NCBI GenBank assembly: GCA_045638945.1
Contig: JAZUCF010000024.1
Coordinates: 93,275-157,274 of the forward strand
Reading direction: 5' to 3'
Source: Clostridia bacterium
GTDB lineage: Bacteria; Bacillota; Clostridia; UMGS1883
DNA: 64,000 bases
Below are positions 4,998 through 20,544 of the stretch, in pieces. Every line of letters begins with the position of its first letter. Positions within the stretch are counted from its first letter, which is position 1. The notes below the pieces were generated by a model. It was given only the letters and a program-made list of their open reading frames with translations. It was not told where the DNA came from and searched no databases. A program made the translations under genes and the position numbers.

Positions 4998-5030
4998 AAA
5001 AGGAGCAAGGGGTGTTTTCCTTGCTCCTTT
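4998..5030. terminator. Bidirectional terminator between ddh and the convergent 164-aa ORF
   Basis: aaaaggagcaagg / ccttgctccttt stem with an 8-nt loop; T-rich on both sides. Confidence 0.65.
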
Positions 5031-5071
5031 ATGAATTTATATTGTGTTTAGTTAAACAAATTGAGGTTTGT

Positions 5072-5566
5072 TTAATCAATTTCCCCATAAAACCACAGTA
5101 TTGTTTTATGTGTAAAATCTGAATCGACAATTGTTTCATAATAGCCTTTCTCTTTAAGGGGTGATTCAATGTGTCGTTCTTGAATAAATGACATACCTTG
5201 TTTGACAATTGGGTTCCAAGTTTGCTCAGTTGTATTTCTTAACCAAAAAGAATTATAATAGTTTTCATCATAGAAAATAATAATTTGTGACTCCCCAAAG
5301 TTCAACTCGTCAATAACTGCAACCACTTTGCAAAAAGCCAGACTATTAGGTTTGTGCTCGATAATTTCAGCAGTTTTATCAAGCCAAGCTTTGCAAAATG
5401 CGGTTTTTATTTTTCCACTCGTTTTCGGAGATGTAATAAACTGACTAAACGGAACGTGAAAATGTTCGTATTTATAGTCTGTATTTTGAAAAGGACATAT
5501 TTGATTTATGTTATTAAGCAGAACTCTTAATTTTCGTTTTTGTCCTCTTTGCTTTTTATATTTCAT
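5072..5566 (-). CDS. Hypothetical protein (164 aa)
   Basis: Clean ORF with RBS (GAGGTGAG) upstream of the ATG. AT-rich. Basic N-terminus (KKQRGQKRKLR). No family recognised. Confidence 0.5.
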   Translation of the reverse strand: MKYKKQRGQKRKLRVLLNNINQICPFQNTDYKYEHFHVPFSQFITSPKTSGKIKTAFCKAWLDKTAEIIEHKPNSLAFCKVVAVIDELNFGESQIIIFYDENYYNSFWLRNTTEQTWNPIVKQGMSFIQERHIESPLKEKGYYETIVDSDFTHKTILWFYGEID

Positions 5567-5708
5567 ATATACTCACCTCGTTTACCAAGTTCTTATTCTA
5601 TAACTACTTATACGAATAGGAAAGTGGATAAAAAGTTATAAATTACTATTATAGTATAGCATACTTTTACTCATTTGTCACGATATAGAGATAAAATTAA
5701 CAAAATTA

Positions 5709-5945
5709 TTAACTTAACATACCTTTTAAGTCAAAGGATATAGGCTTATCTTTGAACTTGTTAAGCGGTATCTTTTTAGCCTGATTGGATAACAGAGTGA
5801 TTATATCATAGGCTTGTTCAATATAAGGCTTGTGCTTATTCTTCTCAACCCAATAGAAGAGTGCCAAGTAATAATCAAGAAACTTTGAAGATACACCATG
5901 ATAAACAAGTAAAAAATGCAAGCAATCACATGAGATTGCTTGCAT
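5709..5945 (-). pseudogene. Probable C-terminal remnant of an IS1595-like (ISXO2-type) transposase
   Basis: The 78-aa ORF contains YHGVSSKFLDYYLALFYWVEKNK, resembling the conserved C-terminal G(V/I)S.K.L..YL..F motif of that transposase family. No catalytic region. It abuts the stop of the neighbouring gene. Confidence 0.4.
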
Positions 5946-5963
5946 TTTTTACTACAGGAAACT

Positions 5964-7154
5964 TTACAGTTTTAATTTCTTTTCTTTAAGTTTTTTTGTT
6001 ACAAATTCTTTTAAAAGAACATATACCACCGAGAACACGGGAACACCTATCAGCATTCCCACAACACCATATGCATTTCCGCCCACAGTTACTGCGGCAA
6101 GTACAAGTATGCCGGGAAGTCCGATTGATTTTCCCACAACTTTCGGATAAATGAAGTTTCCCTCAATCTGTTGAAGCACGAGGAAAAATATAATAAACCA
6201 AAAAGCCTGCATGGGGCTTACAATCAAAATCAGGAATGTTCCCGCTATAACCCCTATCCACGCACCGACAACAGGGATAAGTGCTGTTGCCGCAACAAGC
6301 ACGGAAATCACAACTGCATACGGGAATCTGAAAATCAACATTCCTATAAAACACATAACTCCTAAAATAACGGCTTCTGCAAACTGTACAGTTGCAAAGC
6401 GTGTAAAGGTTTGATTGACAAGAGTAAATACAGACATTGTTTTATCGGAAAACTTTTTCGGGAATATCGCATACAGCAATTTTTTTGAACAAATGCAAAG
6501 CGTTTCCTTTTGTGCCAACATGTAAAAAGCAAACACAGCCGCCAATACAAAATTAATTATTCCTGAGAAAAGCGAGGTAGTAAGGGAATAGGTCGTACTA
6601 AAAAAGTTCATCCCGAATTTGGGGAGCATTTTTCCTAACTTTGAAAGTAAATCCATATTATCAACCGATGCAAAATCAGAAAAGCTTACCCCTATGTCGC
6701 TTAAAAAGACTTTCAGATTCTGAAAAGTTCCGCCCAATGAATCAAAATATTTGGGAAGAAGGGTTATGAGAGAGTCGGCTGTCTGTATAAAAGCAGGAAG
6801 TATAAGGAACAGAATAGCAAAAATTACCGTCAGTACTAATACGATACTTAAAAACATGCACATAGTTCTTTTTATAAAGAACTTCGGTTTGTGCTTTTTG
6901 AAAATCTTGTCCCACAAATTTTCCAGCGGCCGCATAAACAAATTGAGGATAAAGGCAATTACAAAACCGTAAAAAATCGGCAGAATGAGCGAAATGATTC
7001 TGCCTGCAAAATCAAAAATACTCCTGATATTGTCAAGTGTCCAGAATAATAAGAGTGCAAAGGTTATGGCAAAGATAACCAGTGCAAATTGTGAACGCAG
7101 TTTCGGAAAATTACTGCGGGTTGCGGATTCTTTTTTTTCTTCCAATTTAGCCAT
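5964..7154 (-). CDS. AI-2E family transporter (PerM/YtvI-like, UPF0118)
   Basis: 396 aa, polytopic. Family signature region QQIEGNFIYPKVVGKSIGLPGILVLAAVTVGG. Confidence 0.85.
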   Translation of the reverse strand: MAKLEEKKESATRSNFPKLRSQFALVIFAITFALLLFWTLDNIRSIFDFAGRIISLILPIFYGFVIAFILNLFMRPLENLWDKIFKKHKPKFFIKRTMCMFLSIVLVLTVIFAILFLILPAFIQTADSLITLLPKYFDSLGGTFQNLKVFLSDIGVSFSDFASVDNMDLLSKLGKMLPKFGMNFFSTTYSLTTSLFSGIINFVLAAVFAFYMLAQKETLCICSKKLLYAIFPKKFSDKTMSVFTLVNQTFTRFATVQFAEAVILGVMCFIGMLIFRFPYAVVISVLVAATALIPVVGAWIGVIAGTFLILIVSPMQAFWFIIFFLVLQQIEGNFIYPKVVGKSIGLPGILVLAAVTVGGNAYGVVGMLIGVPVFSVVYVLLKEFVTKKLKEKKLKL

Positions 7155-8404: not shown

Positions 8405-8650
8405 ATGAAACAAAGAGTTAATTCCAATGGAAAGAATTTAATCGGTGAAAGACTAAAAGAATTGAGGAATAATGCACATTTATCCCAAAGAGATTTAGCC
8501 AGAGAATTGCAACTTATCGGCATTGATATGGATAAGAACGTTATTACTCGTATCGAAACCAATAAGAGATATGTTGCAGACTTTGAATTACAAGCACTTA
8601 AGAAAATTTTCAAGGTAAGCTATGATTTTCTGATTGACGGGGAAGAGTGA
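8405..8650 (+). CDS. XRE-family helix-turn-helix transcriptional regulator
   Basis: 81 aa. IGERLKELRNNAHLSQRDLARELQL...ITRIE is a classic HTH_3 pattern. Confidence 0.8.
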   Translation: MKQRVNSNGKNLIGERLKELRNNAHLSQRDLARELQLIGIDMDKNVITRIETNKRYVADFELQALKKIFKVSYDFLIDGEE

Positions 8651-8853
8651 CTTTAATGGTTTTTAAACGATTATATGAACTAAGAGTTGACAATGACTTA
8701 ACTCAACAGCAGGTTGCAGATTATTTACTTTGTAACCGTCAGGTATATGCACGGTATGAAAAAGGTATCAGGGAAATTCCCGTTTCAATGCTGATAAAAC
8801 TGACAAAGCTATATAATGTATCGGCAGATTATATTTTAGAAATTAATAGTTGA
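8647..8853 (+). CDS. XRE-family helix-turn-helix transcriptional regulator (second, overlapping copy)
   Basis: LYELRVDNDLTQQQVADYL...VYARYEKGIREIPVSMLIKLTKLYNVSADYIL. The likely true start is the ATG at 8656. It overlaps or abuts the stop of the upstream XRE gene. Confidence 0.8.
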   Translation: MTLMVFKRLYELRVDNDLTQQQVADYLLCNRQVYARYEKGIREIPVSMLIKLTKLYNVSADYILEINS

Positions 8854-8870
8854 AGTGGCCGCGTTCCCCT

Positions 8871-8926
8871 CGGTTCCACCAAAAAATAAAGCACCCATCA
8901 GGGTGCTTTATTTTTTGGTGGAACCG
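8871..8926. terminator. Perfect 26-bp-arm palindrome acting as a bidirectional intrinsic terminator
   Basis: cggttccaccaaaaaataaagcaccc - atca - gggtgctttattttttggtggaaccg. The inner GC stem is flanked by A6/T6 on both strands. It sits between the + strand XRE operon and the - strand DUF4062 unit. Confidence 0.75.
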
Positions 8927-9214
8927 AAATATACTTTCACATTTTCACTAATCATCATTATTTGTTAGTGTAATTCTATGGTAGCGGTCACTTGGAAACT
9001 AGCATTTCAAAATGGATTTTGGTGTCTGCCTTGCCCTTGCCGTGACTGCCGATTCGGACTTGACGAATTCTTCGTTCTTCTGTCGGTGGAGAGGAGTGTG
9101 TGCCGACCTTTTCAAAATTTCTTCGGTGGAATGACAAAATCCGTCGCCTTGTGTGGCAACAGTCTTGTTTGTGTAGTGGACGTGTCTCTCCCTTTCAGGA
9201 CTCCTACAATTGCA

Positions 9215-10159
9215 TTATTTTTCAACAACATCACTTGGCTCAAGACCATTTTCGCTAATAATATCAAGAATACGATTTCTTACATTATCATAATCATTTT
9301 TCATCCTTGACATACATGCTTTCGTGCATTCGTATGGCGGCCCTCCATATGTTATAGAAACACCTTCCGCGTCATTTACACAAATTTGTCCGTTACATAT
9401 ATCATCTAAAGTTTCATTATGTATTATTGTGTATGGAGAAACTTTAATTCCCCAAGTTTCCAAATCCTGAATAGCCCTGCTCTCTATCATTACCTCATAA
9501 CATTTTATCAAAACATTAGTAATATTATCTCCAGTATTTACGGCAAGCTGCTTGGTATAATATTCTATTTTTTCTGTCGCCGCGTGTATTACTTCAAAAA
9601 GCTCTGAGACTTTCCTCGACTCGATACTGTTAGTTAAAAAATTACACATCATTCCTGCCCATTGTTTCTTTAAGTATGCTTCAATATTGTTGAAATCAGC
9701 AAATGGCATGATAGCATTATTTGAACTGTTTTTTCGCACTTCATCTATAAATTCAAATATTTTTATATTATCGACACTTGGGTATATAATATCTTTTGTT
9801 TTAGGATTATCTTTGTTTTTCTGATATACATAATGTTCATTCAACACACTTTGTTCAACAAGAGTAAAGACAGGCAGTTTTTGTTTAATAGCCTCTTCAT
9901 ATTCTTTATTAGTAATTGACTTATCTTCATGATGATAGGCACCGCCAAATCTTCCGCCAATAATCAATACAAATATTTGACAATTTGAAACCTCTGCCAA
10001 ACAGGAATCATGAGTGTGAGTTCCTGGATTATAAAACACATCACCATCTTCACTCAAAACAGCCTCATATCCCACATTGTTAATGAAATACTTTATGTTT
10101 TCTCGTATGTATTTTAAATCGTAGCATGTTGAACTAACAAATACTCTTGGAATAGCCAT
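9215..10159 (-). CDS. DUF4062 (TIR-like) domain protein with an unrecognised C-terminal domain
   Basis: 314 aa. N-terminus VFVSSTCYDLKYIRENIKYFINNVGYEAVLSE...CLAEVSNCQIFVLIIGGRFGG matches my memory of the DUF4062 signature. RBS GGAGG lies 7 nt before the ATG. Confidence 0.65.
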   Translation of the reverse strand: MAIPRVFVSSTCYDLKYIRENIKYFINNVGYEAVLSEDGDVFYNPGTHTHDSCLAEVSNCQIFVLIIGGRFGGAYHHEDKSITNKEYEEAIKQKLPVFTLVEQSVLNEHYVYQKNKDNPKTKDIIYPSVDNIKIFEFIDEVRKNSSNNAIMPFADFNNIEAYLKKQWAGMMCNFLTNSIESRKVSELFEVIHAATEKIEYYTKQLAVNTGDNITNVLIKCYEVMIESRAIQDLETWGIKVSPYTIIHNETLDDICNGQICVNDAEGVSITYGGPPYECTKACMSRMKNDYDNVRNRILDIISENGLEPSDVVEK

Positions 10160-10192
10160 TACGATACCTCCACAATGTTTTTCGACAAAATT

Positions 10193-10221
10193 ATTATATC
10201 ATGAAAATGTCAGTATGGCAA
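10193..10221 (-). promoter_or_regulatory. Near-consensus sigma-A type promoter for the DUF4062 gene
   Basis: Minus strand reads TTGCCA - 17 nt - TATAAT, about 30 nt upstream of the RBS. Confidence 0.55.
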
Positions 10222-10290
10222 ATATTTTATACAATTTTATCCAATTATGACGCAAAGCCGTCGCTCTGTGTGCAACGGCTTTACGTTTTT

Positions 10291-11793
10291 CTATGCTCCT
10301 TTTTTATGTTCCTCAGATGTTTTGATAGTTACTTCTACTTTGTCTCTGTAGACAACAATTTCTTTTACGAAACTGCGAATAAGTTTTCTACACATAGGTA
10401 AATCATGCTTTAACATGAATTCTTTAAATATCTTTTTAGTATTATCTATATCATCAGAATTAACAGCCTTAGGCTTGTAATTCTTGTAGTAGTCATATTT
10501 ATTTTCTAATGTCATTTTCTTTTTTTCAAGAGCAATAAGCTTATTAATTATAGCTTCTGAATTATTGGTTTTTTCTATTACCTCTGTCAATCTATTGATT
10601 GAAAAATCAAGCTGAGTCAATTCATTTTTAACACGGATTGTATTAGTGCTATTTTTAGACTTATCTTTATTGAACTTTTTATCGAGAGCTTTTATTAAGT
10701 ATTTATAATTTTTTTCATCAAATATTATATCAGTGAGCAAATCAAGAATATAGTTATCCAGATAACTAAGATTGATGGCTTTATTGCAACAATCACCTCT
10801 ATAACCACCACATCTGTATGTTATATATTCGGTTTTATTTCTCCCTGCATAACTGGTGTTACCTGAAAAGGCTTTTCCGCACTCTCCGCAGACAACTAAG
10901 CCATTTAACAGATAATATCTCTTGCTGTGAAACCTACCTGCATTTTCTTTATTAAGCTTAGCTTTCTCAATAGCTTTTATGTATATATCATCAGATATTA
11001 TGCGAGGGATTCCGTTTGCAATCTTAATTATTTCATTTTCATCTTTGTACTTATGAGAATTGCGAGTACCATCAATGAACTTAGGTGCTGCTCTATTATA
11101 AATATACGTACCTGTATAACGCTCTGCATTATCAAGAATAGAACTGAAAGAATTCTTATTGAAAGGCAATCCTTTTTTAGTGGTGTAACCATGATTATTG
11201 AGGTAGTCAGCAATATTTTGATACGAATAATCATTAATATACATATCAAATATGAGTTTAACTGCCTTGCTTTCCTTTTTGTTGATTACATATTTTCTAT
11301 TCTCATCTACGTCATATCCGTAGGGAGGAACGCCCCCTGTATGCAATCCCTTGTATGCAACTTCTTTTTTTCCTTTCTGAACTTCTCTTCCAAGGTTTTT
11401 ACTATAAAATTCATTCATTGCAAATATCATGCTTTCAAGCATTTCGCTTTCGGGAGTATCATCTAAAGGCTCAATTACGCTTATGAGCTTTATTCCTTTT
11501 TTCTGCAAAAAACACTTATAGGAATATGAATCAATTTTGTTTCTTGCAAATCTATCTAATTTGTGAACTATTACGGCATATACATTTGAATTAGCAACAT
11601 CTTTCATCATTTGCTGAAACTGAGGTCTGTCATCTGTTGTTGCAGATTTAGCTTCATCAACATATTCGCCTTTAATTTTATATCCTTTTTCTTTACAGTA
11701 TTGTTCTATTGCTCTACGTTGAGCTTCTATTGACTCTTGTTTTTGCATGGTGCTTGAATAACGAAGATAAATATATACCATTTTAGTTGGCAT
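10291..11793 (-). CDS. Large serine recombinase (resolvase/invertase N-domain + recombinase domain + zinc ribbon)
   Basis: 500 aa. YLRYSSTMQ (catalytic Ser context), VHKLDRFARN, GGVPPYGY, CGECGKAF...YRCGG zinc ribbon, and a coiled-coil C-terminal region. Confidence 0.9.
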   Translation of the reverse strand: MPTKMVYIYLRYSSTMQKQESIEAQRRAIEQYCKEKGYKIKGEYVDEAKSATTDDRPQFQQMMKDVANSNVYAVIVHKLDRFARNKIDSYSYKCFLQKKGIKLISVIEPLDDTPESEMLESMIFAMNEFYSKNLGREVQKGKKEVAYKGLHTGGVPPYGYDVDENRKYVINKKESKAVKLIFDMYINDYSYQNIADYLNNHGYTTKKGLPFNKNSFSSILDNAERYTGTYIYNRAAPKFIDGTRNSHKYKDENEIIKIANGIPRIISDDIYIKAIEKAKLNKENAGRFHSKRYYLLNGLVVCGECGKAFSGNTSYAGRNKTEYITYRCGGYRGDCCNKAINLSYLDNYILDLLTDIIFDEKNYKYLIKALDKKFNKDKSKNSTNTIRVKNELTQLDFSINRLTEVIEKTNNSEAIINKLIALEKKKMTLENKYDYYKNYKPKAVNSDDIDNTKKIFKEFMLKHDLPMCRKLIRSFVKEIVVYRDKVEVTIKTSEEHKKGA

Positions 11794-12445: not shown

Positions 12446-13873
12446 TTAATTCGTAATTAAATCATCACTATTATCTTGATATGGTAAATTCGACTTGCAA
12501 TAGCTTGTACAATCTAAAGGTCTATGTTTTTTCAAGGAAATCCCCATAACCCTTCTATCGCAACCCGATTTCTTTATGGTAATATCCTTCTGACCTGTTT
12601 TTATTTTGAATAACTGTCTAAAATACATCCAAAACCTACTAGTTGTAATACGAGAATAATTAGTGTGATTATTTGCACTACACCAACTTTGAAATGCAAG
12701 GAAAATAGCTTTCTTTGTTTCCCATACACACATATCCTCAGATGTACTAACGAAAATGCATTCGTTCCAAAATGCCTCAAATGGATTAGACATAGTTATA
12801 TATTGATTCTTTAACTTTTCAATTTTCTTTGATTTTGTAAATTTATAGTCTCTGGACTCAAGCCTGTCAAGACCTCTTATTGCAAAATTAAATATACCAG
12901 ACAGTTCTTTCTTTAATTTTTTCTCTAGATGAATATCTGCAGTTCCGTCTTTAATTGAAAACTGCTTTTCAAATGGAATTATCATAATTCTACGATAGAA
13001 GCCATCTGAAATGTCCTTGAATTGAGGTAGAGTATTGGTGCTGAATATTAATTTGCAGAAAGGTTTAAACGAAAATACATCTTTACCCTTAAATTCTGCT
13101 GATATTGCATCACCACCTGTTATAGCTTTTAAATACTGTGTATCTACAACCTGACCACTATAGCTTTCGTTTTCGGTTGATATATTAACTAATTTATCTA
13201 ATAAAACTGATTTAGTAAATCTTTTAGAAAAATCTCTGATAGCTACAGTTGAGCAGTTACTATCTCCAATCAATGCCATAATCACATTGCATAATACCGA
13301 CTTTCCATTTGCTCCTGTACCAAAAAACAAGAAGAAACACTGTGCTGCATTTTCCTTTGTCATTAAGTAACCCAAAAGTTCCTGAATCACCTTTATTATC
13401 GCTTTATTGTTATCAAATACACTTTTCAAAAACTCAAAAAAATGTGGACATCTAGCCTTCTCATCATAAATTATAGGGAGTTGAACTGTGCAATAATACT
13501 TGGGACTATGTGGAATAAGTTTTTTGTTCTTTAAATCGTACATTCCATTTTTCAGACAGATTAAATCTTTATTTTTATTGAAATTACCACCATAAAACGC
13601 TATTCTCTTTAATGCAGTAAAATAAAATTCCTCAGCCTTTTTATTAAATGCATCGGGGAAAGAGGTTTGAAGAATGATTCTTGCCATAAAAGCTTTTAAT
13701 CTATCCTCCGAAATTTCCTTATAGACTCCGTTATGATACCTATAAAACTTTCCGTTACTTGCACAAATAATCTTATACTTTTTGTGTATATAGCGTGCAA
13801 ATGCATTGCTATTTAGATAAATTATACCTTTATCTGTTCTTCTGAAACCCATTTCTTTTTCTTCTTTAGTCAT
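12446..13873 (-). CDS. Phage/plasmid primase, P4 family (D5-like SF3 helicase/NTPase domain)
   Basis: Walker A FFLFFGTGANGKSVL, Walker B-like region, FKPFCKLIFSTN. I prefer the start at 13873 (MTKEEKEMGF), because the track's N-terminal extension runs through a palindromic operator and promoter. Confidence 0.85.
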   Translation of the reverse strand: MTKEEKEMGFRRTDKGIIYLNSNAFARYIHKKYKIICASNGKFYRYHNGVYKEISEDRLKAFMARIILQTSFPDAFNKKAEEFYFTALKRIAFYGGNFNKNKDLICLKNGMYDLKNKKLIPHSPKYYCTVQLPIIYDEKARCPHFFEFLKSVFDNNKAIIKVIQELLGYLMTKENAAQCFFLFFGTGANGKSVLCNVIMALIGDSNCSTVAIRDFSKRFTKSVLLDKLVNISTENESYSGQVVDTQYLKAITGGDAISAEFKGKDVFSFKPFCKLIFSTNTLPQFKDISDGFYRRIMIIPFEKQFSIKDGTADIHLEKKLKKELSGIFNFAIRGLDRLESRDYKFTKSKKIEKLKNQYITMSNPFEAFWNECIFVSTSEDMCVWETKKAIFLAFQSWCSANNHTNYSRITTSRFWMYFRQLFKIKTGQKDITIKKSGCDRRVMGISLKKHRPLDCTSYCKSNLPYQDNSDDLITN

Positions 13874-13945
13874 AATAATTTCCCTACCTTTGTTAGTTTC
13901 TTTTCTAATTTGTACCATCATTATATCATTTAAATTTCTTATTAG

Positions 13946-13993
13946 GTCGCAAACTTGCGACAAATTGACAATTATTGTTTGCTATGATATTAT
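13946..13993 (+). promoter_or_regulatory. Palindromic operator plus consensus-like promoter in the divergent region
   Basis: GTCGCAA-ac-TTGCGAC (13946..13961) lies immediately upstream of TTGACA (13965..13970) - 17 nt - TATTAT (13988..13993), reading toward the 166-aa gene. Confidence 0.5.
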
Positions 13994-14596: not shown

Positions 14597-14615
14597 CTAT
14601 GAAAGGATGATTAAA

Positions 14616-16190
14616 ATGAATCTAAGCTATGTTTTAAAGGTTGTTCTGTATGCTCGGTTTTCTTCTGACCTGCAGCGTTCAGAAAGCATTGATGCACAAG
14701 TGCGTGCAATGAAGAAGTACTGCGAGCAACACGGAATGCAGATTGTTGACATCTATGTTGACGAGGCAAAGTCTGCAACCACAGACAAGCGACCTTCTTT
14801 CCAAAGGATGATTGAGGACAGTAAAAAGCACATCTTTCAAGGGGTTGTAGTTCACAAGCTTGACAGATTTGCAAGAAACCGCTACGATTCCGCTATGTAT
14901 AAGAGAACACTCAAACTCAATGGTGTTAGAGTGTTCAGTGTGCTTGAAAATCTTGATGACTCACCTGAATCTATAATGCTAGAGTCACTTCTTGAAGGTA
15001 TGAATGAATACTACTCAAAAAACCTTGCAAGAGAAGTTATGAAAGGATTGAAGGAGAATGCAATTCAGTGTAAGCATACAGGTGGTGTACCGCCATTAGG
15101 CTACTATGTTGACGAAAACAAACATCTTGCAATTAACGAAAGAGAAGCGGAAGCAGTAAGAATTATATTTGATATGTTTTCAAAAGGATATTCTTATGAT
15201 GAAATCACATCAAAGCTAAATCAGGAAAAATATTACACAAAGAAAGGAAACATATTTATACGAAATTCTATTTACAGTATTCTCACAAATGAAAAATACA
15301 CAGGCACGTATGTGTTTAATAAGTCATCATCAAAAGATATGAACAACAAAAGAAATTCGCATAAATATAAGGATGATGATTTGATTATAAGAATCCCAAA
15401 CGGTTGTCCTCAAATTGTTGATAATGAAACATTTGAAAAAGTTCAGCAAAGAATACTTGAAAACAAACATCTGTCGGGAATGTATAACGCCAAGCACAGA
15501 TATTTATTAACAGGATTTTTATTTTGCGGTTACTGCGGAAAGCGACTTACAGGTAACAGAAGATATGGAGGAAGAAACAAATCTCTTGCAGTTACATATC
15601 GTTGCTTAACTCACAAGGATATTTGTATCAGTAAGGAATATAACAGATTCTTTTTAGAAGATTTCGTTTTTTATCAAATCAAAGAGCATTTCGGCTATAA
15701 GTCAAAAGTTACTTCTATGTATAATAAAGTAAGTCGTTATCTAAACAAAAGCCGCAAATCTTTGCAATCAGAGTTACAAGCTCTTACTTCAAAACTGATA
15801 ACTGTTAATGAATCAATAGCAAACATTACTAAGGCTATTGAGAAAGGAATTTATAATGAAGATATACACAACAGATTAGAAGAACTCAAAGTTGACAAAG
15901 CAACTATTGAAACAGAAATATCAAAGAAATCACAATTTCAGGAAGTCAAATATACTGATGATGATATATTACAGACCTTGACCGAGTGCAAAGAGCTTAT
16001 CAGGCAACCTACTAACCCTGAAAATAGATGGTTTCTTAAAAAAGTCATTTCAAAAATTGTTCTTTATCGGGATGAAGTGCTAATTGTTCTCAAAACAGGA
16101 TTATCAGTTAATGATGAATTTGATACTGAAATAAGAGCAACAAGAAAAGAAATTTATGACTATGGAAGGAGAATAAAAAATGCTGGTTGA
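14616..16190 (+). CDS. Large serine recombinase (second copy, opposite orientation)
   Basis: YARFSSDLQ, VHKLDRFARN, GGVPPLGYY, CGYCGKRL...YRC zinc ribbon, coiled-coil tail. Clear paralog of 10291..11793. The ATG at 14616 has better spacing from AAAGGA than the track start at 14607. Confidence 0.9.
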   Translation: MNLSYVLKVVLYARFSSDLQRSESIDAQVRAMKKYCEQHGMQIVDIYVDEAKSATTDKRPSFQRMIEDSKKHIFQGVVVHKLDRFARNRYDSAMYKRTLKLNGVRVFSVLENLDDSPESIMLESLLEGMNEYYSKNLAREVMKGLKENAIQCKHTGGVPPLGYYVDENKHLAINEREAEAVRIIFDMFSKGYSYDEITSKLNQEKYYTKKGNIFIRNSIYSILTNEKYTGTYVFNKSSSKDMNNKRNSHKYKDDDLIIRIPNGCPQIVDNETFEKVQQRILENKHLSGMYNAKHRYLLTGFLFCGYCGKRLTGNRRYGGRNKSLAVTYRCLTHKDICISKEYNRFFLEDFVFYQIKEHFGYKSKVTSMYNKVSRYLNKSRKSLQSELQALTSKLITVNESIANITKAIEKGIYNEDIHNRLEELKVDKATIETEISKKSQFQEVKYTDDDILQTLTECKELIRQPTNPENRWFLKKVISKIVLYRDEVLIVLKTGLSVNDEFDTEIRATRKEIYDYGRRIKNAG

Positions 16191-16713
16191 AAAAAACATA
16201 TTAAAATCAGATTTGTCCTACAATGATGATAAGTCTAGGAGGTATTTGCTTCATATTGAATGGGACAAGACAAAGAAAAATGCGGCTATTGTTATGCTAT
16301 CAGCAGGAAAAGCAAACGGATTAGTGTTTGACCGTACTACTAATAATGTAATAGAAAATTTGGTTGAGTTAGACTACGGAAGTGTAGACATACTCAACCT
16401 TTTTTCATCTTTAGAGACCAAAATTGATGATGAAGCCGATTCAGAAAATCTAAAGATAATTGATGTTTCTGCAAAGAATGCAGACATTGTAATATTTGCA
16501 GCCGGAACAGGAAGAAAAGCAGATACGAGAGTGCAGTCACGGCAAAATGAAGTTTTAGCAAAACTTAAAAAGCACGATAAAAAATTATTCTGCATTGCAG
16601 ACAAGAACGGACAGAAATTCTACCATCCCTTATGTCCCAAGGTGAAAAAGTGGAACTTAGTTAAGTTTGATATTGAAGAATTAACAAAGAAAGGATATGA
16701 CAATGAGTATTAA
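16180..16713 (+). CDS. DUF1643-like protein
   Basis: 177 aa. RRYLLHIEWD...AAIVMLSAG...ILNLFS...FYHPL follows the DUF1643 pattern from memory. Its start overlaps the recombinase stop. Confidence 0.6.
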   Translation: MLVEKNILKSDLSYNDDKSRRYLLHIEWDKTKKNAAIVMLSAGKANGLVFDRTTNNVIENLVELDYGSVDILNLFSSLETKIDDEADSENLKIIDVSAKNADIVIFAAGTGRKADTRVQSRQNEVLAKLKKHDKKLFCIADKNGQKFYHPLCPKVKKWNLVKFDIEELTKKGYDNEY

Positions 16714-17336: not shown

Positions 17337-18563
17337 ATGGCGTTAATAGATGTCGTTAAATATGAAGGTGGTCCAAATATCTTTGCTTGGAAATATCCAA
17401 ATAATGAGTTGAGTACGAAAACTCAACTTATAGTAAATGAAAGTCAGGAAGCCATTTTATTTAAAGGTGGGCAGGCATTAGACATATTTGGTGCAGGTAG
17501 ACATACTTTAGAAACAAAAAATATTCCTGTTTTAAGTAAATTGATTAATTTACCTTTTGGAGGGCAATCTCCTTTTACTGCTGAAGTATGGTTTGTAAAT
17601 AAAATTCATTCATTAGATATTAAGTGGGGAACTTCGACTCCTATTTCCTTGTTTGACCCATTTCTTATGATTGATGTCAAAGTAAAAAGCTTTGGTCAAT
17701 TTGGAATAAGAGTTGATAATTCAAGAAAGTTTTTAGAGAAACTTGTAGGTACACTTCCGATATTCAGTCAAGAAAATGTTACTGCATATTTTAAGGGTGA
17801 ATATTTGAGAAAATGCACATCTATTATAGGCTCATATTTTACTCAAAAAAATATTGGTATTTTACAAGTAAATACATACTTAGATAATTTATCAGATTTC
17901 ATAAAAGAATATATGAAAGACTTTATGGCTGATTATGGAATAACCTTGTTAAACTTCTCCGTCAATAGTGTTAATGCCGACGAGAATGACAGTAGCTATA
18001 AAGTAGTAAAAGAAGCTATGGCTGGTGCTGCTAAAACAAGATGGACAGAAGCCGCAAAAGCAGACACACAAGCATATACTACACGTCAGGTAGGTACCGC
18101 AAAAGCAGATGTTATGGGATATGAGCAAAAGCAAGCAGGTTATACTTATCAGCAAAAACGGTCATTTGATGTTATGGAAAGTGCCGCTTCAAATGAAGGT
18201 AGCGGTATGTCAAATGATTTTATGACTATGGGAATGGGGCTTGCTATGGGCAATAAAATGGGTGCAGTTGTAGGAACACAAATGGGAAATATGGCTACGG
18301 TTATGGATGTAACTGAAGATATACCTAAAACTTGTGAAAAATGCGGAGCATTATTAAACAGCAATCAAAAATTTTGCAGTAATTGCGGAGCAGATGCACA
18401 ATTAACCAATCAAGCAAAGTGTGTTAGTTGCGGAAGATTACTTGATGTCAATAGCAAGTTTTGTCCTGAGTGCGGAGCTTCTCAAATTAAACAATGCCCT
18501 GAATGTAAAACCGAAATTAAAGGAACTCCTAAATTCTGCCCTGAATGTGGAAATAAGCTTTAA
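17337..18563 (+). CDS. SPFH/band-7 domain protein of the YdjI/COG4260 type with three C-terminal zinc ribbons
   Basis: 408 aa. N-terminus IDVVKYEGGPNIFAWKYP...LIVNESQEAILFKGGQ...GAGRHTLETKNIPVLSKL...PFGGQSPFTAEVWFVNK...KWGT. M/G/A-rich linker. Three ribbons: CEKCG-x-CSNCG, CVSCG-x-CPECG, CPECK-x-CPECG. Confidence 0.8.
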   Translation: MALIDVVKYEGGPNIFAWKYPNNELSTKTQLIVNESQEAILFKGGQALDIFGAGRHTLETKNIPVLSKLINLPFGGQSPFTAEVWFVNKIHSLDIKWGTSTPISLFDPFLMIDVKVKSFGQFGIRVDNSRKFLEKLVGTLPIFSQENVTAYFKGEYLRKCTSIIGSYFTQKNIGILQVNTYLDNLSDFIKEYMKDFMADYGITLLNFSVNSVNADENDSSYKVVKEAMAGAAKTRWTEAAKADTQAYTTRQVGTAKADVMGYEQKQAGYTYQQKRSFDVMESAASNEGSGMSNDFMTMGMGLAMGNKMGAVVGTQMGNMATVMDVTEDIPKTCEKCGALLNSNQKFCSNCGADAQLTNQAKCVSCGRLLDVNSKFCPECGASQIKQCPECKTEIKGTPKFCPECGNKL

Positions 18564-18575
18564 GGTGGTGCTTCA

Positions 18576-19238
18576 ATGAAAAATAAGAAATCTATTTTAA
18601 TGATTGGTGGAATAACTCTATTTATAACTCTTATTATATTTCTTCTTGGAATAGATAAGGGGAAAAGAACTATTGACTACATCTCTTTTTTATTCATCGT
18701 ATTAGGCGAATGTATAACATTTGGTACTATGGCATTTTACAAGCAACCTACAATGATTTCAAATCTTTCAATATCATCAATTATGCCTGTTTATCTGGTG
18801 ATAAATATTCTTTTTTCGCTATTGTTTAAAAATGCATTTGCCGATAACATTTCAGCTTTTACAGTGATTCATATTGTGTTAATTTCTATTCTTACTATAT
18901 TAATTATTTTTTTAAGCGGATTGTTAAATGAGATTAATAAGGATGAAGAAAACACAATAAGACAAAAAGCCGTTATTGACGAGTGTGAACGAGTAGCACA
19001 AATACTTATGCTTAACAGTAAGTATGAAAATCATCGTACAAAATTAAATAAAATTTATGATGATATTAAATATTCAGACCATATATCTGATTATAAAAGT
19101 TCAGAAATATTGTCAGCACTAAATTCAATTTCAGTATGTACTGATGAAAACGAAATAGATGCTTTATGTGAGCAGACAATTCAATTAATTCAGGATAGAA
19201 ATATTACTGTCAATCAGCTAAAAAGAGGGGGATTTTAA
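18576..19238 (+). CDS. Four-TM membrane protein with a ~100-aa helical cytoplasmic tail
   Basis: 220 aa. Four hydrophobic helices in the first ~115 aa, then a charged helical tail. Starts 12 nt after the SPFH gene, with RBS AAGGTGG. Confidence 0.6.
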   Translation: MKNKKSILMIGGITLFITLIIFLLGIDKGKRTIDYISFLFIVLGECITFGTMAFYKQPTMISNLSISSIMPVYLVINILFSLLFKNAFADNISAFTVIHIVLISILTILIIFLSGLLNEINKDEENTIRQKAVIDECERVAQILMLNSKYENHRTKLNKIYDDIKYSDHISDYKSSEILSALNSISVCTDENEIDALCEQTIQLIQDRNITVNQLKRGGF

Positions 19239-19239
19239 T

Positions 19240-19779
19240 ATGGACAAGAAAATAGAGAAAATGATAAATACATTTAAACCTAATCAAAGAGAAAAACTGT
19301 TAAAGCAAATTGCACCGAAAAGAGGTTTTACTACAGGGGCTATTTTAGGGTACGCACTGGGAGTTTGGGCTTCAGGCATTATTTTTATTCCGCTTGGTTT
19401 AGAATTTGTTGGAATATTGACTGGCATAGTTTGTGCTACGATAGGAGGAACATTTTTTGAAAAACATAATGCAAAACAAAGGGAATATTTTTCTATGATA
19501 GACAATCATAGGATTTTATCAATAGACCAAATCGCTTCGTCATTGTCAGTATCTTACGAACAAGCAAGAAAAGATATAAATAAAATGATAGAAAAAGGAT
19601 TTTTTGGAAACGCTCATATTGATAATGTAACTCGTTCGATAGTTCTTCCTATAAGTGGTGTCGATATTAACACTGAAGTTACAACAATCAATAAAACATG
19701 CCCCTCTTGCGGAGCAACAAATAATGTATCTTCACTTGGTGAAAACAAATGTGAATATTGTGGAACAATCTTAGATTAA
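19240..19779 (+). CDS. Two-TM membrane protein with a wHTH-like segment and a C-terminal zinc ribbon
   Basis: 179 aa. TM helices GAILGYALGVWASGIIFIPLG and FVGILTGIVCATIGGTFF; SIDQIASSLSVSYEQARKDINKMIEKGF; CPSCG-x13-CEYCG. Starts 1 nt after the upstream stop, with RBS AGAGGGGGA. Confidence 0.6.
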   Translation: MDKKIEKMINTFKPNQREKLLKQIAPKRGFTTGAILGYALGVWASGIIFIPLGLEFVGILTGIVCATIGGTFFEKHNAKQREYFSMIDNHRILSIDQIASSLSVSYEQARKDINKMIEKGFFGNAHIDNVTRSIVLPISGVDINTEVTTINKTCPSCGATNNVSSLGENKCEYCGTILD

Positions 19780-20196: not shown

Positions 20197-20544
20197 TGGT
20201 GGAGCCGAGGGGAGTCGAACCCCTGTCCGAAAACATATTCACACAGGCATCTCCGAGCGCAGTCACTTATTAAAAATTCCCTCCGCCGCAAGGCAAGTGA
20301 CAGCCCAAGCGGTTTTGGTAGCTTCATTCGTCATGCATGGTGCAAAGCTTAACCATGTCACGTTCACCACTGTGTGACGCTCTTATCCCGACCGTGGTCC
20401 TTCAGGTAAGAACGGCTGCACTAATTAGGCAGCGTAAGCTAAATTATTGTTAGCGTTTAAATTTAAAAATTGGGATTTTAACGCAGTTCCCGCTGCGGCT
20501 CGCTTCCCATGCTTCAACATCCCCGTCGAAACCGGTACGGCCCC
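20197..20544 (-). ncRNA. ssrA: tmRNA (transfer-messenger RNA)
   Basis: Sense 5' end GGGGCCGTACCGGTTTCGACGGGG. 3' end GGACAGGGGTTCGACTCCCCTCGGCTCCACCA (T-arm, acceptor, CCA). Internal tag frame GCT AAC AAT AAT TTA GCT TAC GCT GCC TAA = ANNNLAYAA* (20425..20454). Adjacent to smpB. Confidence 0.93.

What the first reader, a model, noticed from the sequence alone, without database searches (positions are those of the whole stretch)
9215..10221. Stand-alone DUF4062 (TIR-like) gene with its own consensus promoter at the edge of the element
Seen in the sequence:
- A 314-aa ORF follows TTGCCA-17-TATAAT and GGAGG-7nt-ATG.
- It is separated by 131 nt and a hairpin from the recombinase gene upstream.
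- The first convincing terminator lies about 290 nt after its stop.
- The N-terminal ~90 aa (VFVSSTCYDL...IFVLIIGGRFGG) fit the DUF4062 signature as I remember it.
- The remaining ~200 aa carry no motif I recognise.

Established (from memory, to be verified): DUF4062 is considered a TIR/deoxyribosyltransferase-like Rossmannoid domain. It is frequently fused to STAND NTPases and other conflict-system domains.

Inference: this is a single-gene candidate effector/sensor in the cargo position of a mobile element. It is possibly NAD+- or nucleotide-targeting.
Basis: partly seen in the sequence, partly recalled or inferred. Interest (0 to 1): 0.65.

Follow-up and report, generated by a model that had tools for sequence, protein, structure and literature searches.

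The report
Stand-alone DUF4062 (NIR) anti-phage NADase candidate
This gene at the edge of a genomic island next to the tmRNA gene encodes a TIR-like "DUF4062/NIR" enzyme fused to an unrecognised sensor domain; it is most likely a one-gene anti-phage system that kills infected cells by destroying NAD+, a kind of system first described in three 2026 preprints, but from a lineage nobody has tested.

Summary
A 314-aa ORF (9215-10159, minus strand) follows TTGCCA-17-TATAAT and GGAGG-7-ATG, and matches Pfam DUF4062 (E 1.5e-24).

Three 2026 preprints (Swarozyc, Evangelion, NIR/Vulcan/Vesta) show that DUF4062 is a TIR-like NADase used by single-gene abortive-infection systems built as core + stalk + variable auxiliary (AUX) domain. 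The window protein has that build:
- a five-stranded TIR-like core;
- the catalytic Glu (E86, aligned to KpSwz E97 and Eva01 E87), plus F7 and W167;
- a 54-residue stalk helix;
- a compact 107-aa AUX (pLDDT 94.6).

It is not Swarozyc or Eva01. The AUX shows no sequence or fold relative (hhalign probability 0.1%; Foldseek best E 1.8). The core belongs to a distinct subfamily (S-I-T-N-x-E-Y; Q/W/E motif absent).

The family is widespread in Bacteria and Archaea. It has no conserved neighbour gene, and the same core carries at least 21 other tail types. It sits near RM, AbiE, BREX, Shango and integrases, or alone beside guaA, lepA or ssrA.

Verdict: an untested variant of a newly known kind. Interest is moderate.

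The parts
9215..10159 (-). DUF4062/NIR-AUX gene, 314 aa (stop codon 9215-9217)
   Evidence: ORF list. Pfam PF13271 at 86.4 bits. Full-length homologues share 44-77% identity.
9695..10159 (-). TIR-like catalytic core, residues 1-155 (five beta strands; Pfam match residues 5-90 = 9890-10147)
   Evidence: AF2 secondary structure: E5-10, E32-35, E62-67, E97-102, E150-153 with flanking helices, pLDDT 84.5. Foldseek hits TIR-STING, DNPH1, plant TIRs and SARM1. hhalign against Swarozyc/Eva01 gives probability 97.2%.
9902..9904 (-). Codon of E86, the predicted catalytic glutamate in the motif S81-I-T-N-K-E86-Y87
   Evidence: E86 is invariant in 43 homologues. It aligns to KpSwz E97 and Eva01 E87. The equivalent residues are required for defence and NADase activity (papers).
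9533..9694 (-). Long helix, residues 156-209 (last core helix plus stalk); contains Q166-W167
   Evidence: AF2 predicts helix 156-209. W167 aligns with Eva01 W162 and the KpSwz GW motif. KpSwz has an equivalent helical stalk.
9218..9532 (-). AUX domain, residues 210-314: compact alpha+beta domain with the conserved loop T-Y-G-G-P-P-Y; presumed sensor
   Evidence: AF2 of residues 208-314 alone gives pLDDT 94.6 and pTM 0.86. No Pfam hit. Foldseek PDB best E 1.8 and BFVD best E 0.52. hhalign against Swarozyc/Eva01 gives probability 0.1%.
10193..10221 (-). Sigma-70-like promoter TTGCCA-17-TATAAT with TG extension
   Evidence: Consensus scan, 11 of 12 positions. Predicted only.
10167..10171 (-). 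GGAGG ribosome-binding site, 7 nt before the ATG
   Evidence: Read from the sequence.
10250..10286 (-). Hairpin between the recombinase stop and the promoter; upstream copy of the bracketing repeat
   Evidence: dG -25.1 kcal/mol, z -5.96. The motif occurs only twice in the window. Aligned to the downstream copy.
9134..9168 (-). Terminator-like hairpin 52 nt after the stop; downstream copy of the bracketing repeat
   Evidence: Flagged by the terminator scan. dG -16.9 kcal/mol, z -4.95. Shares the motif with the upstream copy.
8870..8927 (.). 27-bp perfect palindrome (bidirectional terminator-like). Arm 1 holds a 16/17 copy of the tmRNA 3' end at 8865-8881 (+). Probable left border of the island.
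   Evidence: Inverted repeat I1/I2 list. Local alignment and shuffle test, 0 of 300 shuffles reach the score.
10291..11793 (-). Large serine recombinase adjacent to the gene (element backbone, not part of the defence unit)
   Evidence: Pfam Resolvase + Recombinase + Zn_ribbon_recom.
20197..20544 (-). tmRNA gene (ssrA); right border of the island
   Evidence: Rfam RF00023 at 163.6 bits and ARAGORN. smpB and rnr follow.

Best explanation
The gene encodes a self-contained, one-protein abortive-infection system of the DUF4062/NIR class.

Build of the protein:
- Residues 1-155 form a TIR-like NAD+ glycohydrolase, with E86 as the catalytic glutamate.
- Residues 156-209 form a helical stalk that would mediate dimer or oligomer formation and hold the enzyme auto-inhibited.
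- Residues 210-314 (AUX) are the sensor.

Proposed action: when AUX binds a phage-derived cue, the stalks and cores rearrange and oligomerise. The cue is most likely a phage protein or a replication intermediate, as in the tested relatives. [quoted passage not shown]

The gene rides as an autonomous promoter-to-terminator cassette at the outer end of an ssrA-linked integrative island.

Shown here: the domain, the predicted fold, conservation of the essential residues, single-gene status, and the mobile and defence-type contexts.
Inferred: NADase chemistry, auto-inhibition, the sensing role of AUX, and the phage-defence phenotype.
For: - Domain and fold: Pfam DUF4062, E 1.5e-24. The AF2 model (pLDDT 84.5) has five parallel strands plus helices and a 54-residue helix. 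The nearest solved folds are TIR-STING, plant TIRs, SARM1, SPARTA TIR-APAZ and DNPH1.
- Homology to tested proteins: profile-profile match to KpSwz/Eva01 cores at probability 97.2%, E 3.4e-11. PDB KpSwz and TEP1 are the only solved-sequence hits.
- Essential residues: Eva01 F11/E87/W162 and KpSwz E97 correspond to F7, E86 and W167. F7 and E86 are invariant and W167 nearly so in the family.
- Published experiments: DUF4062 proteins hydrolyse NAD+, cause abortive infection, and need both the catalytic Glu and the AUX.
- Stand-alone status: there is no conserved neighbour in 78 loci.
- Modular sensor swapping: 36 of 150 representatives carry this AUX; 114 have the same core with other tails, which form at least 21 clusters.
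- Context: neighbours include AbiE, mads, Shango, BREX, RM methylases, SoFic, ABC-3C and integrases; an HNH+C5-MTase pair; a MoxR/DUF5682 module; and 32 IMG/VR viral contigs.
- Distribution: patchy across Bacillota, Bacteroidota, Pseudomonadota, Planctomycetota, Chloroflexota and Bathyarchaeia at 40-55% identity, which indicates horizontal transfer.
- Expression unit: own promoter, RBS and terminator-like hairpin.
Against: - No experiment exists on this protein or on its subfamily.
- The core differs from all tested ones. The first Glu of the usual S-x-T-E-x-E-[YF] motif is Asn (N84, invariant). The Q/W/E motif, conserved in Evangelion proteins, is replaced by H-T-H-D-x-C. A roughly 20-residue insertion follows strand 4.
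- Some DUF4062 proteins (human NWD1, NWD2, NPHP3) show no NADase activity, so the domain does not guarantee the chemistry.
- One Evangelion lineage (Eva02) gave no protection against the phages tested.
- The AUX has no recognisable relative, so its sensor role rests only on analogy.
- PADLOC (2023) and NCBIfam (2026) have no model for the protein.
- Many homologues sit among housekeeping genes with no neighbouring defence gene.
Confidence: 0.6

Rival explanations
1. The architecture and the defence role are the same, but the chemistry differs. The divergent core (N84, H-T-H-D-x-C loop, extra insertion) would not simply deplete NAD+. It might make an ADP-ribose-derived signal, or act as an N-glycosidase on another nucleotide (dNMP or CMP, as DNPH1 and CMP hydrolases do).
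For: - DNPH1 structures are among the best Foldseek matches, with the highest target-normalised TM-scores (0.64-0.68).
- The Avs DUF4062 effector was first annotated as a CMP-hydrolase-like domain.
- The subfamily has lost the first Glu and the Q/W/E motif.
- Eva01 activation perturbs several adenine and guanosine metabolites.
- The NIR authors themselves speculate on functional diversification.
Against: - Every bacterial DUF4062 tested so far yields ADPR + nicotinamide and no other products.
- The residue shown to be catalytic is retained.
- No partner effector that could read a signal is conserved next to the gene.
Confidence: 0.15
2. The gene serves the island rather than the host. It would act as an addiction or stabilisation toxin, or as a weapon against competing mobile elements or helper phages of a satellite-like island. 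Broad anti-phage defence would not be its selected role.
For: - The gene sits directly beside a large serine recombinase at the island edge.
- The island has replication genes (D5_N/DUF5906 primase-helicase) but no virion genes, as satellites do.
- Relatives occur on plasmids, on prophage-like viral contigs and next to integrases.
- The cassette is bracketed by a repeated hairpin.
Against: - No antitoxin-like partner is conserved.
- Close homologues sit alone between housekeeping genes with no visible element.
- Tested relatives protect against lytic phages when moved out of their elements.
Confidence: 0.12
3. The protein is a non-catalytic TIR-like scaffold, or a decaying gene, with no enzymatic or defence function.
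For: - Some DUF4062 domains lack detectable NADase activity.
- The protein is a singleton at 90% identity, found on one contig.
Against: - The ORF is intact, with strong expression signals.
- 34 columns are invariant across 43 homologues from many phyla, including the catalytic Glu.
- Both domains are predicted with confidence.
Confidence: 0.05

Closest known systems
Swarozyc (KpSwz, Klebsiella pneumoniae; PDB 10wc/11cq/11cv; Osinski et al., bioRxiv 10.64898/2026.05.01.722283)
   Same: - A single protein of about 320-340 aa.
- An N-terminal DUF4062 TIR-like core with five strands.
- The catalytic Glu at the same aligned position (E97 and E86).
- A helical stalk, then a C-terminal AUX of about 110-130 aa.
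- Found in defence islands and spread by horizontal transfer.

   Different: - Core identity is only about 29% over 94 aligned columns.
- The window family has N instead of the first Glu of T-E-x-E-F and lacks E-E-Q-W-E.
- The AUX shows no detectable homology (hhalign probability 0.1%; phmmer and hmmsearch align residues 5-104 only).
- The trigger (the phage portal for KpSwz) is unknown here.
Evangelion type 1 (Eva01, S. aureus plasmid pMW2, WP_000072390.1; Ibarra-Chavez et al., bioRxiv 10.64898/2026.06.25.731849)
   Same: - A single-gene DUF4062 core plus AUX, 324 aa against 314 aa.
- The essential residues F11, E87-Y88 and W162 have counterparts F7, E86-Y87 and W167.
- Carried on a mobile element next to recombinase genes.

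   Different: - 23% identity over 137 aa.
- The Q50-W51-E52 motif is absent.
- The AUX is unrelated.
- The window gene is chromosomal, in an island, not on a resistance plasmid. Only 11 PLSDB plasmids give even a weak N-terminal match, whereas the KpSwz core matches 189 Staphylococcus plasmids.
- Eva01 senses replication- or recombination-associated cues.
Vulcan, Vesta and NIR-Avs (Le Mouellic et al., bioRxiv 10.64898/2026.09.04.749371)
   Same: The same effector domain (NIR = DUF4062), with a conserved catalytic Glu and abortive-infection logic.
   Different: - Vulcan has C-terminal HEAT repeats.
- Vesta is a two-gene operon with an alkaline phosphatase.
- Avs proteins carry a STAND NTPase plus TPR repeats.
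- None of these features is present here.
Canonical TIR NADases (SARM1, TIR-STING, ThsB, SPARTA TIR-APAZ) and NDT-like hydrolases (DNPH1)
   Same: The fold is similar and the catalytic Glu lies at the start of the helix after strand 3 (literature).
   Different: There is no Pfam TIR hit. Sequence identity is 9-19%. The published analyses place DUF4062 as a separate family.

Membership tests
Pfam DUF4062 (PF13271) = NIR domain | Match to the family HMM above the gathering threshold | tested here: met
   86.4 bits against a cut-off of 24.7, E 1.5e-24, model positions 1-82 of 82.
Pfam DUF4062 (PF13271) = NIR domain | TIR-like alpha/beta fold with a five-stranded parallel sheet | tested here: met
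   The AF2 model has five strands and flanking helices. Foldseek top hits are TIR domains and DNPH1. This is a prediction, not a solved structure.
Pfam DUF4062 (PF13271) = NIR domain | Catalytic glutamate in S-x-T-x-x-E-[YF] | tested here: met
   E86 is invariant. It aligns to KpSwz E97 (an Ala in the deposited E97A chain; a Glu in the Vibrio homologue) and to Eva01 E87.
Pfam DUF4062 (PF13271) = NIR domain | NAD+ hydrolysis to ADP-ribose + nicotinamide | not testable with these tools
   This needs an enzyme assay. Some family members are inactive in vitro.
Swarozyc | C-terminal AUX homologous to KpSwz AUX (HTH/winged core, W-Y hairpin anchor) | tested here: not met
   hhalign of the AUX profile against the Swz/Eva01 alignment gives probability 0.1%. 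phmmer and hmmsearch against PDB KpSwz align only residues 5-104. A fold-level comparison was not possible, because KpSwz is absent from the Foldseek PDB copy (entries to 2026-04-08).
Swarozyc | Helical stalk between the core and the AUX | tested here: met
   AF2 predicts helix 156-209. KpSwz is described.
Swarozyc | Activation by the phage portal protein | not testable with these tools
   This needs co-expression or biochemical experiments.
Evangelion (Eva01 lineage) | Conserved aromatic F11, E87-Y88 and W162 | tested here: met
   F7, E86-Y87 and W167 align to them.
Evangelion (Eva01 lineage) | DUF4062 Q/W/E motif (Q50-W51-E52) | tested here: not met
   The aligned positions read H-T-H-D-S-C. 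The family consensus is H-T-H-D-A-C with C53 invariant.
Evangelion (Eva01 lineage) | Eva01-type AUX region | tested here: not met
   BLASTP finds no AUX alignment. hhalign gives probability 0.1%.
Evangelion in the broad sense (single-gene DUF4062 core + any AUX) | Single gene, with no obligatory partner | tested here: met
   No neighbour cluster is shared by more than 5 of 78 loci.
Evangelion in the broad sense (single-gene DUF4062 core + any AUX) | AUX-dependent anti-phage phenotype | not testable with these tools
   This needs phage challenge of wild-type and AUX-truncated constructs. The sequences of Eva02-04 are not available in the held text, so lineage assignment could not be tested.
Vulcan | C-terminal HEAT repeats | tested here: not met
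   The C-terminal part is a 107-aa alpha+beta domain with no repeat and no Pfam hit.
Vesta | Operon with the alkaline phosphatase VstB | tested here: not met
   The window neighbours are a serine recombinase and non-coding DNA. No conserved partner exists in 78 loci.
NIR-Avs / NLR-like | STAND NTPase plus sensor repeats | tested here: not met
   The protein is 314 aa with only DUF4062 in Pfam.
Canonical TIR (Pfam TIR/TIR_2) | Match to the TIR family HMMs | tested here: not met
   There is no TIR family at E <= 0.1. The similarity is at fold level only.

The most novel reading that the evidence does not exclude
This widespread subfamily has two departures from every tested DUF4062 system. Its core carries S-I-T-N-x-E-Y, a C12/C53 pair and an H-T-H-D-x-C loop, and lacks the Q/W/E motif. 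Its AUX is a confidently folded domain with no sequence or structural relative.

The most novel reading is that it is more than another NAD+ depleter. The altered active-site surroundings could give a different substrate or product (a signalling nucleotide, or a non-NAD N-glycosidase reaction). The AUX, with its invariant-like Y-G-G-P-P-Y hairpin, could be a new sensor fold recognising a trigger class not yet known for DUF4062 systems, conserved from gut Clostridia to Bathyarchaeia.
Probability: 0.12. Interest if true: 0.7.

Novelty: new variant of a known kind. Interest (0 to 1): 0.4.

Why it matters
DUF4062/NIR has only just been recognised as an NAD+-degrading immune domain shared by bacteria and human TEP1. 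Only a handful of architectures have been tested.

This gene represents a large, cross-phylum lineage with 280 cluster representatives at E <= 1e-30. One core subfamily is joined to more than 20 different C-terminal domains, which makes it a natural library of sensors for phage cues. Testing it would show three things:
- whether the divergent core still depletes NAD+;
- what the unrecognised AUX domain senses;
- how far the core-stalk-sensor logic generalises, including to Archaea and to gut anaerobes, whose defence repertoires are poorly sampled.

Tried and rejected
1. PADLOC 2023 and NCBIfam 2026 scans of the protein gave no model.
2. An Rfam scan of the 3' region and the whole window found only tmRNA. 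The sub-threshold hits all fall on the palindrome. The idea of an associated structured RNA in the 290-nt trailer was dropped. That region is not conserved in any other locus.
3. A big-database search with the AUX profile returned a single 140-aa AUX-only ORF. There was no evidence that the AUX is fused to other effectors.
4. A search with a 95-aa KpSwz fragment returned only short fragments. The full KpSwz sequence was recovered through a Vibrio plasmid homologue and the PDB alignment instead.
5. I first suspected that the window protein lacks the catalytic Glu, because phmmer aligned E86 to an Ala of KpSwz. This was rejected: the deposited chain is the E97A mutant.
6. The empty-site search for island borders failed. 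Two metagenome scans found nothing, then only distant tmRNA genes. No att-like repeats link the two island ends apart from the tmRNA 3'-end copy.
7. A DNA search of E. coli genomes found no match, so no link to the E. coli Evangelion or Swarozyc representatives could be made.
8. Foldseek with the AUX alone against PDB and BFVD gave nothing significant. A MarR hit at probability 0.04 is not evidence for a winged helix.
Full report

Yes. The 314-aa ORF lies on the minus strand at 9215..10159.
- TTGCCA-17-TATAAT (10221..10193) is preceded by TG. It matches 11 of 12 consensus positions, which ties it for best in a 4.2-kb scan. Promoter-like sites are common in this AT-rich DNA (33 found, 21 expected), so this is suggestive only.
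- GGAGG lies 7 nt before the ATG.
- The upstream gene (10291..11793) is a large serine recombinase with Resolvase, Recombinase and Zn_ribbon_recom domains.
- The 131-nt spacer contains a strong hairpin at 10250-10286 (dG -25.1 kcal/mol, z -6).
- Pfam DUF4062 matches residues 5-90 at 86.4 bits, against a cut-off of 24.7.

Two details need correction.
- A terminator-like hairpin already lies 52 nt after the stop (9134-9168; dG -16.9; followed by AUUUUGUCAUU).
- The Pfam model covers only the first half of the catalytic fold, so the unassigned part is about 105 aa, not about 200 aa.

**2. Anatomy of the protein**

An AlphaFold2 model built on 43 homologues has pLDDT 84.5. It shows three parts:
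- five strands (5-10, 32-35, 62-67, 97-102, 150-153) alternating with helices;
- one 54-residue helix (156-209);
- a compact alpha+beta domain.

Modelled alone, residues 208-314 reach pLDDT 94.6 and pTM 0.86.

Foldseek of the full model against the PDB returns TIR-STING, plant TIR domains, SARM1, SPARTA TIR-APAZ and the deoxyribosyltransferase-like DNPH1. All of these hits fall on the N-terminal domain.

The C-terminal domain (AUX) has no recognisable relative:
- no Pfam match;
- no significant structural neighbour in the PDB (best E 1.8) or in BFVD (best E 0.52).

**3. What is known about the domain**

Three 2026 preprints have turned DUF4062 from a domain of unknown function into a defined immune effector.
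- Osinski et al. show it is a TIR-like NADase. The single-protein system Swarozyc (KpSwz) is built as a TIR-like core, a helical stalk and an AUX domain. It is auto-inhibited as a dimer or oligomer. It is activated when the AUX binds the phage portal, and it then hydrolyses NAD+ to ADPR + nicotinamide. Activity depends on E97.
- Ibarra-Chavez et al. describe Evangelion, single-gene DUF4062 + AUX systems. In Eva01 of plasmid pMW2, residues F11, E87 and W162 and the AUX are all required. NAD+ falls on infection, and escaper phages map to recombination genes.
- Le Mouellic et al. rename the domain NIR. They show NAD+ depletion by a NIR-Avs, by Vulcan (NIR + HEAT repeats) and by Vesta (NIR protein + alkaline phosphatase). 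NIR genes lie near defence genes in 20% of cases, against 3.9% expected.

**4. How the window protein relates to the tested systems**

The PDB sequence copy contains KpSwz (10wc, 11cq, 11cv). The window protein hits it weakly (E 0.068) and its family profile hits it better (E 8e-4), in both cases only over residues 5-104.

I recovered the KpSwz sequence through a Vibrio plasmid homologue, and took Eva01 from pMW2.

- The core is homologous. Profile-profile comparison gives probability 97.2% and E 3.4e-11 for the core, about 29% identity over 94 columns.
- The AUX is not detectably homologous. The same comparison gives probability 0.1%. Eva01 shares 23% identity over 137 residues, in the core only.
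- The catalytic Glu is present. The deposited KpSwz chain reads SFTEKAFDYA where the Vibrio homologue reads SYTEKEFDYA, so the Ala is the E97A mutation. The catalytic residue is therefore the second Glu of S-x-T-E-x-E-[YF]. Window E86 (S-I-T-N-K-E-Y) aligns to it and is invariant in the family.
- F7 aligns to Eva01 F11, and W167 aligns to Eva01 W162.

Differences in the core:
- The first Glu of the motif is Asn (N84). It is invariant in the alignment and is N in 169 of 267 relatives.
- The Q/W/E motif is replaced by H-T-H-D-x-C, with C53 invariant.
- C12 replaces an aromatic residue.
- A roughly 20-residue insertion follows strand 4.

The KpSwz core matches 189 Staphylococcus (Eva01-type) plasmids. 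The window protein matches only 11 plasmids, weakly. Swarozyc and Eva01 are therefore closer to each other than either is to this subfamily.

**5. The family and its contexts**

Size and spread:
- Full-length homologues (about 310-340 aa, 44-77% identity) number in the hundreds in the 90%-identity cluster database.
- An exhaustive HMMER scan of 50%-identity representatives gives 3055 hits at E <= 1e-3 and 280 at E <= 1e-30.
- In the species-representative genomes the family occurs in Bacillota, Bacteroidota, Pseudomonadota, Planctomycetota, Chloroflexota, Verrucomicrobiota and several Bathyarchaeia.
- At the DNA level only the coding sequence is shared between loci.

Stand-alone status and modularity:
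- Across 78 loci no neighbouring gene family recurs in more than five loci. The largest is an integron-integrase-like recombinase. The gene is genuinely stand-alone.
- Among the 150 best representatives, 36 carry this AUX. The other 114 have the same core subfamily joined to other C-terminal regions, which fall into at least 21 clusters. This is the sensor-swapping pattern expected of a modular immune protein.

Neighbours:
- Genes within two positions in 41 loci include AbiEi/AbiEii, mads components, Shango SngB/C, BREX BrxC/BrxH, type II methylases, SoFic, an ABC-3C component, tyrosine integrases and resolvases. They also include plain housekeeping genes.
- P0042: lepA | DUF4062 | HNH endonuclease + C5 methylase | serS.
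- P0006: guaA | DUF4062 | MGMT-type gene, with no other foreign gene.
- P0022: guaA | DUF4062 | unknown genes + MoxR AAA + DUF5682.
- Thirty-two IMG/VR viral contigs encode relatives, mostly sharing the core only. Two Acinetobacter phage contigs do so in GenBank.

**6. The local element**

- GC falls from about 40% to about 31% between roughly 8 kb and 20.2 kb.
- The right border is the tmRNA gene (20197-20544), followed by smpB and rnr.
- The island carries two divergent large serine recombinases, a D5_N/DUF5906 primase-helicase, a DUF1643 protein, an SPFH + double-zinc-ribbon protein and small unknown genes. It has no virion genes.
- The last 17 nt of tmRNA recur, 16 of 17, at 8865-8881 inside the palindrome. 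No shuffle out of 300 reaches this score. The copy is in inverted orientation, which I cannot explain.
- I could not find an empty site in metagenomes, nor att-type repeats.
- The promoter-to-terminator unit is bracketed by two related hairpins. The motif occurs only at these two places in 64 kb. This fits a separately acquired cassette.

**7. Mechanism**

The best-supported explanation (confidence about 0.6) is a one-protein abortive-infection system.
- The TIR-like core, with E86, hydrolyses NAD+.
- The stalk mediates auto-inhibitory dimers or oligomers.
- The AUX senses a phage cue and releases the enzyme.

Shown here: the fold prediction, residue conservation, single-gene status, modularity and context.
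Inferred from relatives: the chemistry, the regulation and the phenotype.

The conserved T-Y-G-G-P-P-Y hairpin of the AUX is my candidate for the contact surface. This is by loose analogy with the W-Y hairpin anchor of KpSwz, and it is speculation.

The rivals are a different substrate or product (0.15), an island-selfish role (0.12), and a non-catalytic or decaying protein (0.05).

**8. Novelty and verdict**

The kind is known as of 2026: a single-gene DUF4062/NIR core with a diversified AUX.

The protein fails the AUX-based membership tests for Swarozyc and Eva01. It lacks the defining parts of Vulcan, Vesta and NIR-Avs. It belongs to a distinct and untested core subfamily.

I rate it a new variant of a known kind. 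It is a worthwhile candidate for testing, but it would not surprise a specialist. Interest 0.4.

Noticed in passing
window 10250-10286 and 9134-9168 (minus strand): Two related hairpins bracket the DUF4062 transcription unit. Their core of about 27 nt is 24/27 identical. The motif GTTGC-N0-2-ACACA-N1-3-GCGACGG occurs only at these two places in the 64-kb window and in none of the 108 loci held at that point. They may be cassette borders or a duplicated terminator.
   Followed up: partly
window 8865-8881 (+) within the palindrome 8870-8896/8901-8927: A 16/17 copy of the tmRNA 3' end (TCCCCTCGGTTCCACCA) lies 11.3 kb from ssrA, in INVERTED orientation. On the same strand as ssrA only 11 of 12 nt match. 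It probably marks the island border, but the orientation is not what simple integration into ssrA would leave.
   Followed up: partly
window 10291-11793 (-) and 14607-16190 (+), with 12446-13963 (-): Two divergent paralogous large serine recombinases flank a D5_N/DUF5906 primase-helicase, in an island of about 11 kb with no virion genes. It could be satellite-like, or two elements in tandem.
   Followed up: partly
window 17337-18563 (+), followed by 18576-19238 and 19240-19779: An SPFH/Band_7_1 domain is fused to a double zinc ribbon. It is followed by a 220-aa protein and by a 179-aa protein with a weak HTH and a zinc ribbon. The module has unknown function and may be another stress or defence cargo of the island. 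PADLOC gives no real hit.
   Followed up: partly
window 16180-16713 (+): A DUF1643 protein is encoded directly after, and overlapping the end of, the second serine recombinase gene.
   Followed up: no
window 9215-10159, residues C12 and C53: Two (near-)invariant cysteines in this subfamily replace aromatic or hydrophobic residues of Swarozyc and Eva01 (F/Y at position 12, F/I at position 53). They may be in contact or form a redox or metal site near the active site. Distances in the model could not be measured with these tools.
   Followed up: no
L141 2280-2702: A 140-aa ORF is 66% identical to the stalk end plus AUX of the window protein, with no DUF4062 core upstream. A divergent HTH-TPR gene lies there instead. 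It may be a remnant or a free-standing AUX. It is a single low-coverage contig.
   Followed up: partly
L105 7001-7972; L107 7001-7942; L003-L006: Close homologues sit immediately 3' of guaA, or between lepA and serS. With ssrA in the window, this means insertion next to highly conserved genes that commonly serve as island integration sites.
   Followed up: partly
L100 12646-12803 vs window 14778-14935: A metagenome contig from a different organism has a serine-recombinase segment 74% identical to the window's second recombinase, about 11 kb from its own tmRNA gene. This suggests a related ssrA-linked island elsewhere.
   Followed up: no
window 8405-8853 (+) and 5001-6000: Two overlapping HTH_3 (Xre-type) regulator genes end just before the palindrome. 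A further low-GC stretch (30%) lies around the unknown ORF 5072-5566. It is unclear whether these belong to the host, to this island or to another element.
   Followed up: no
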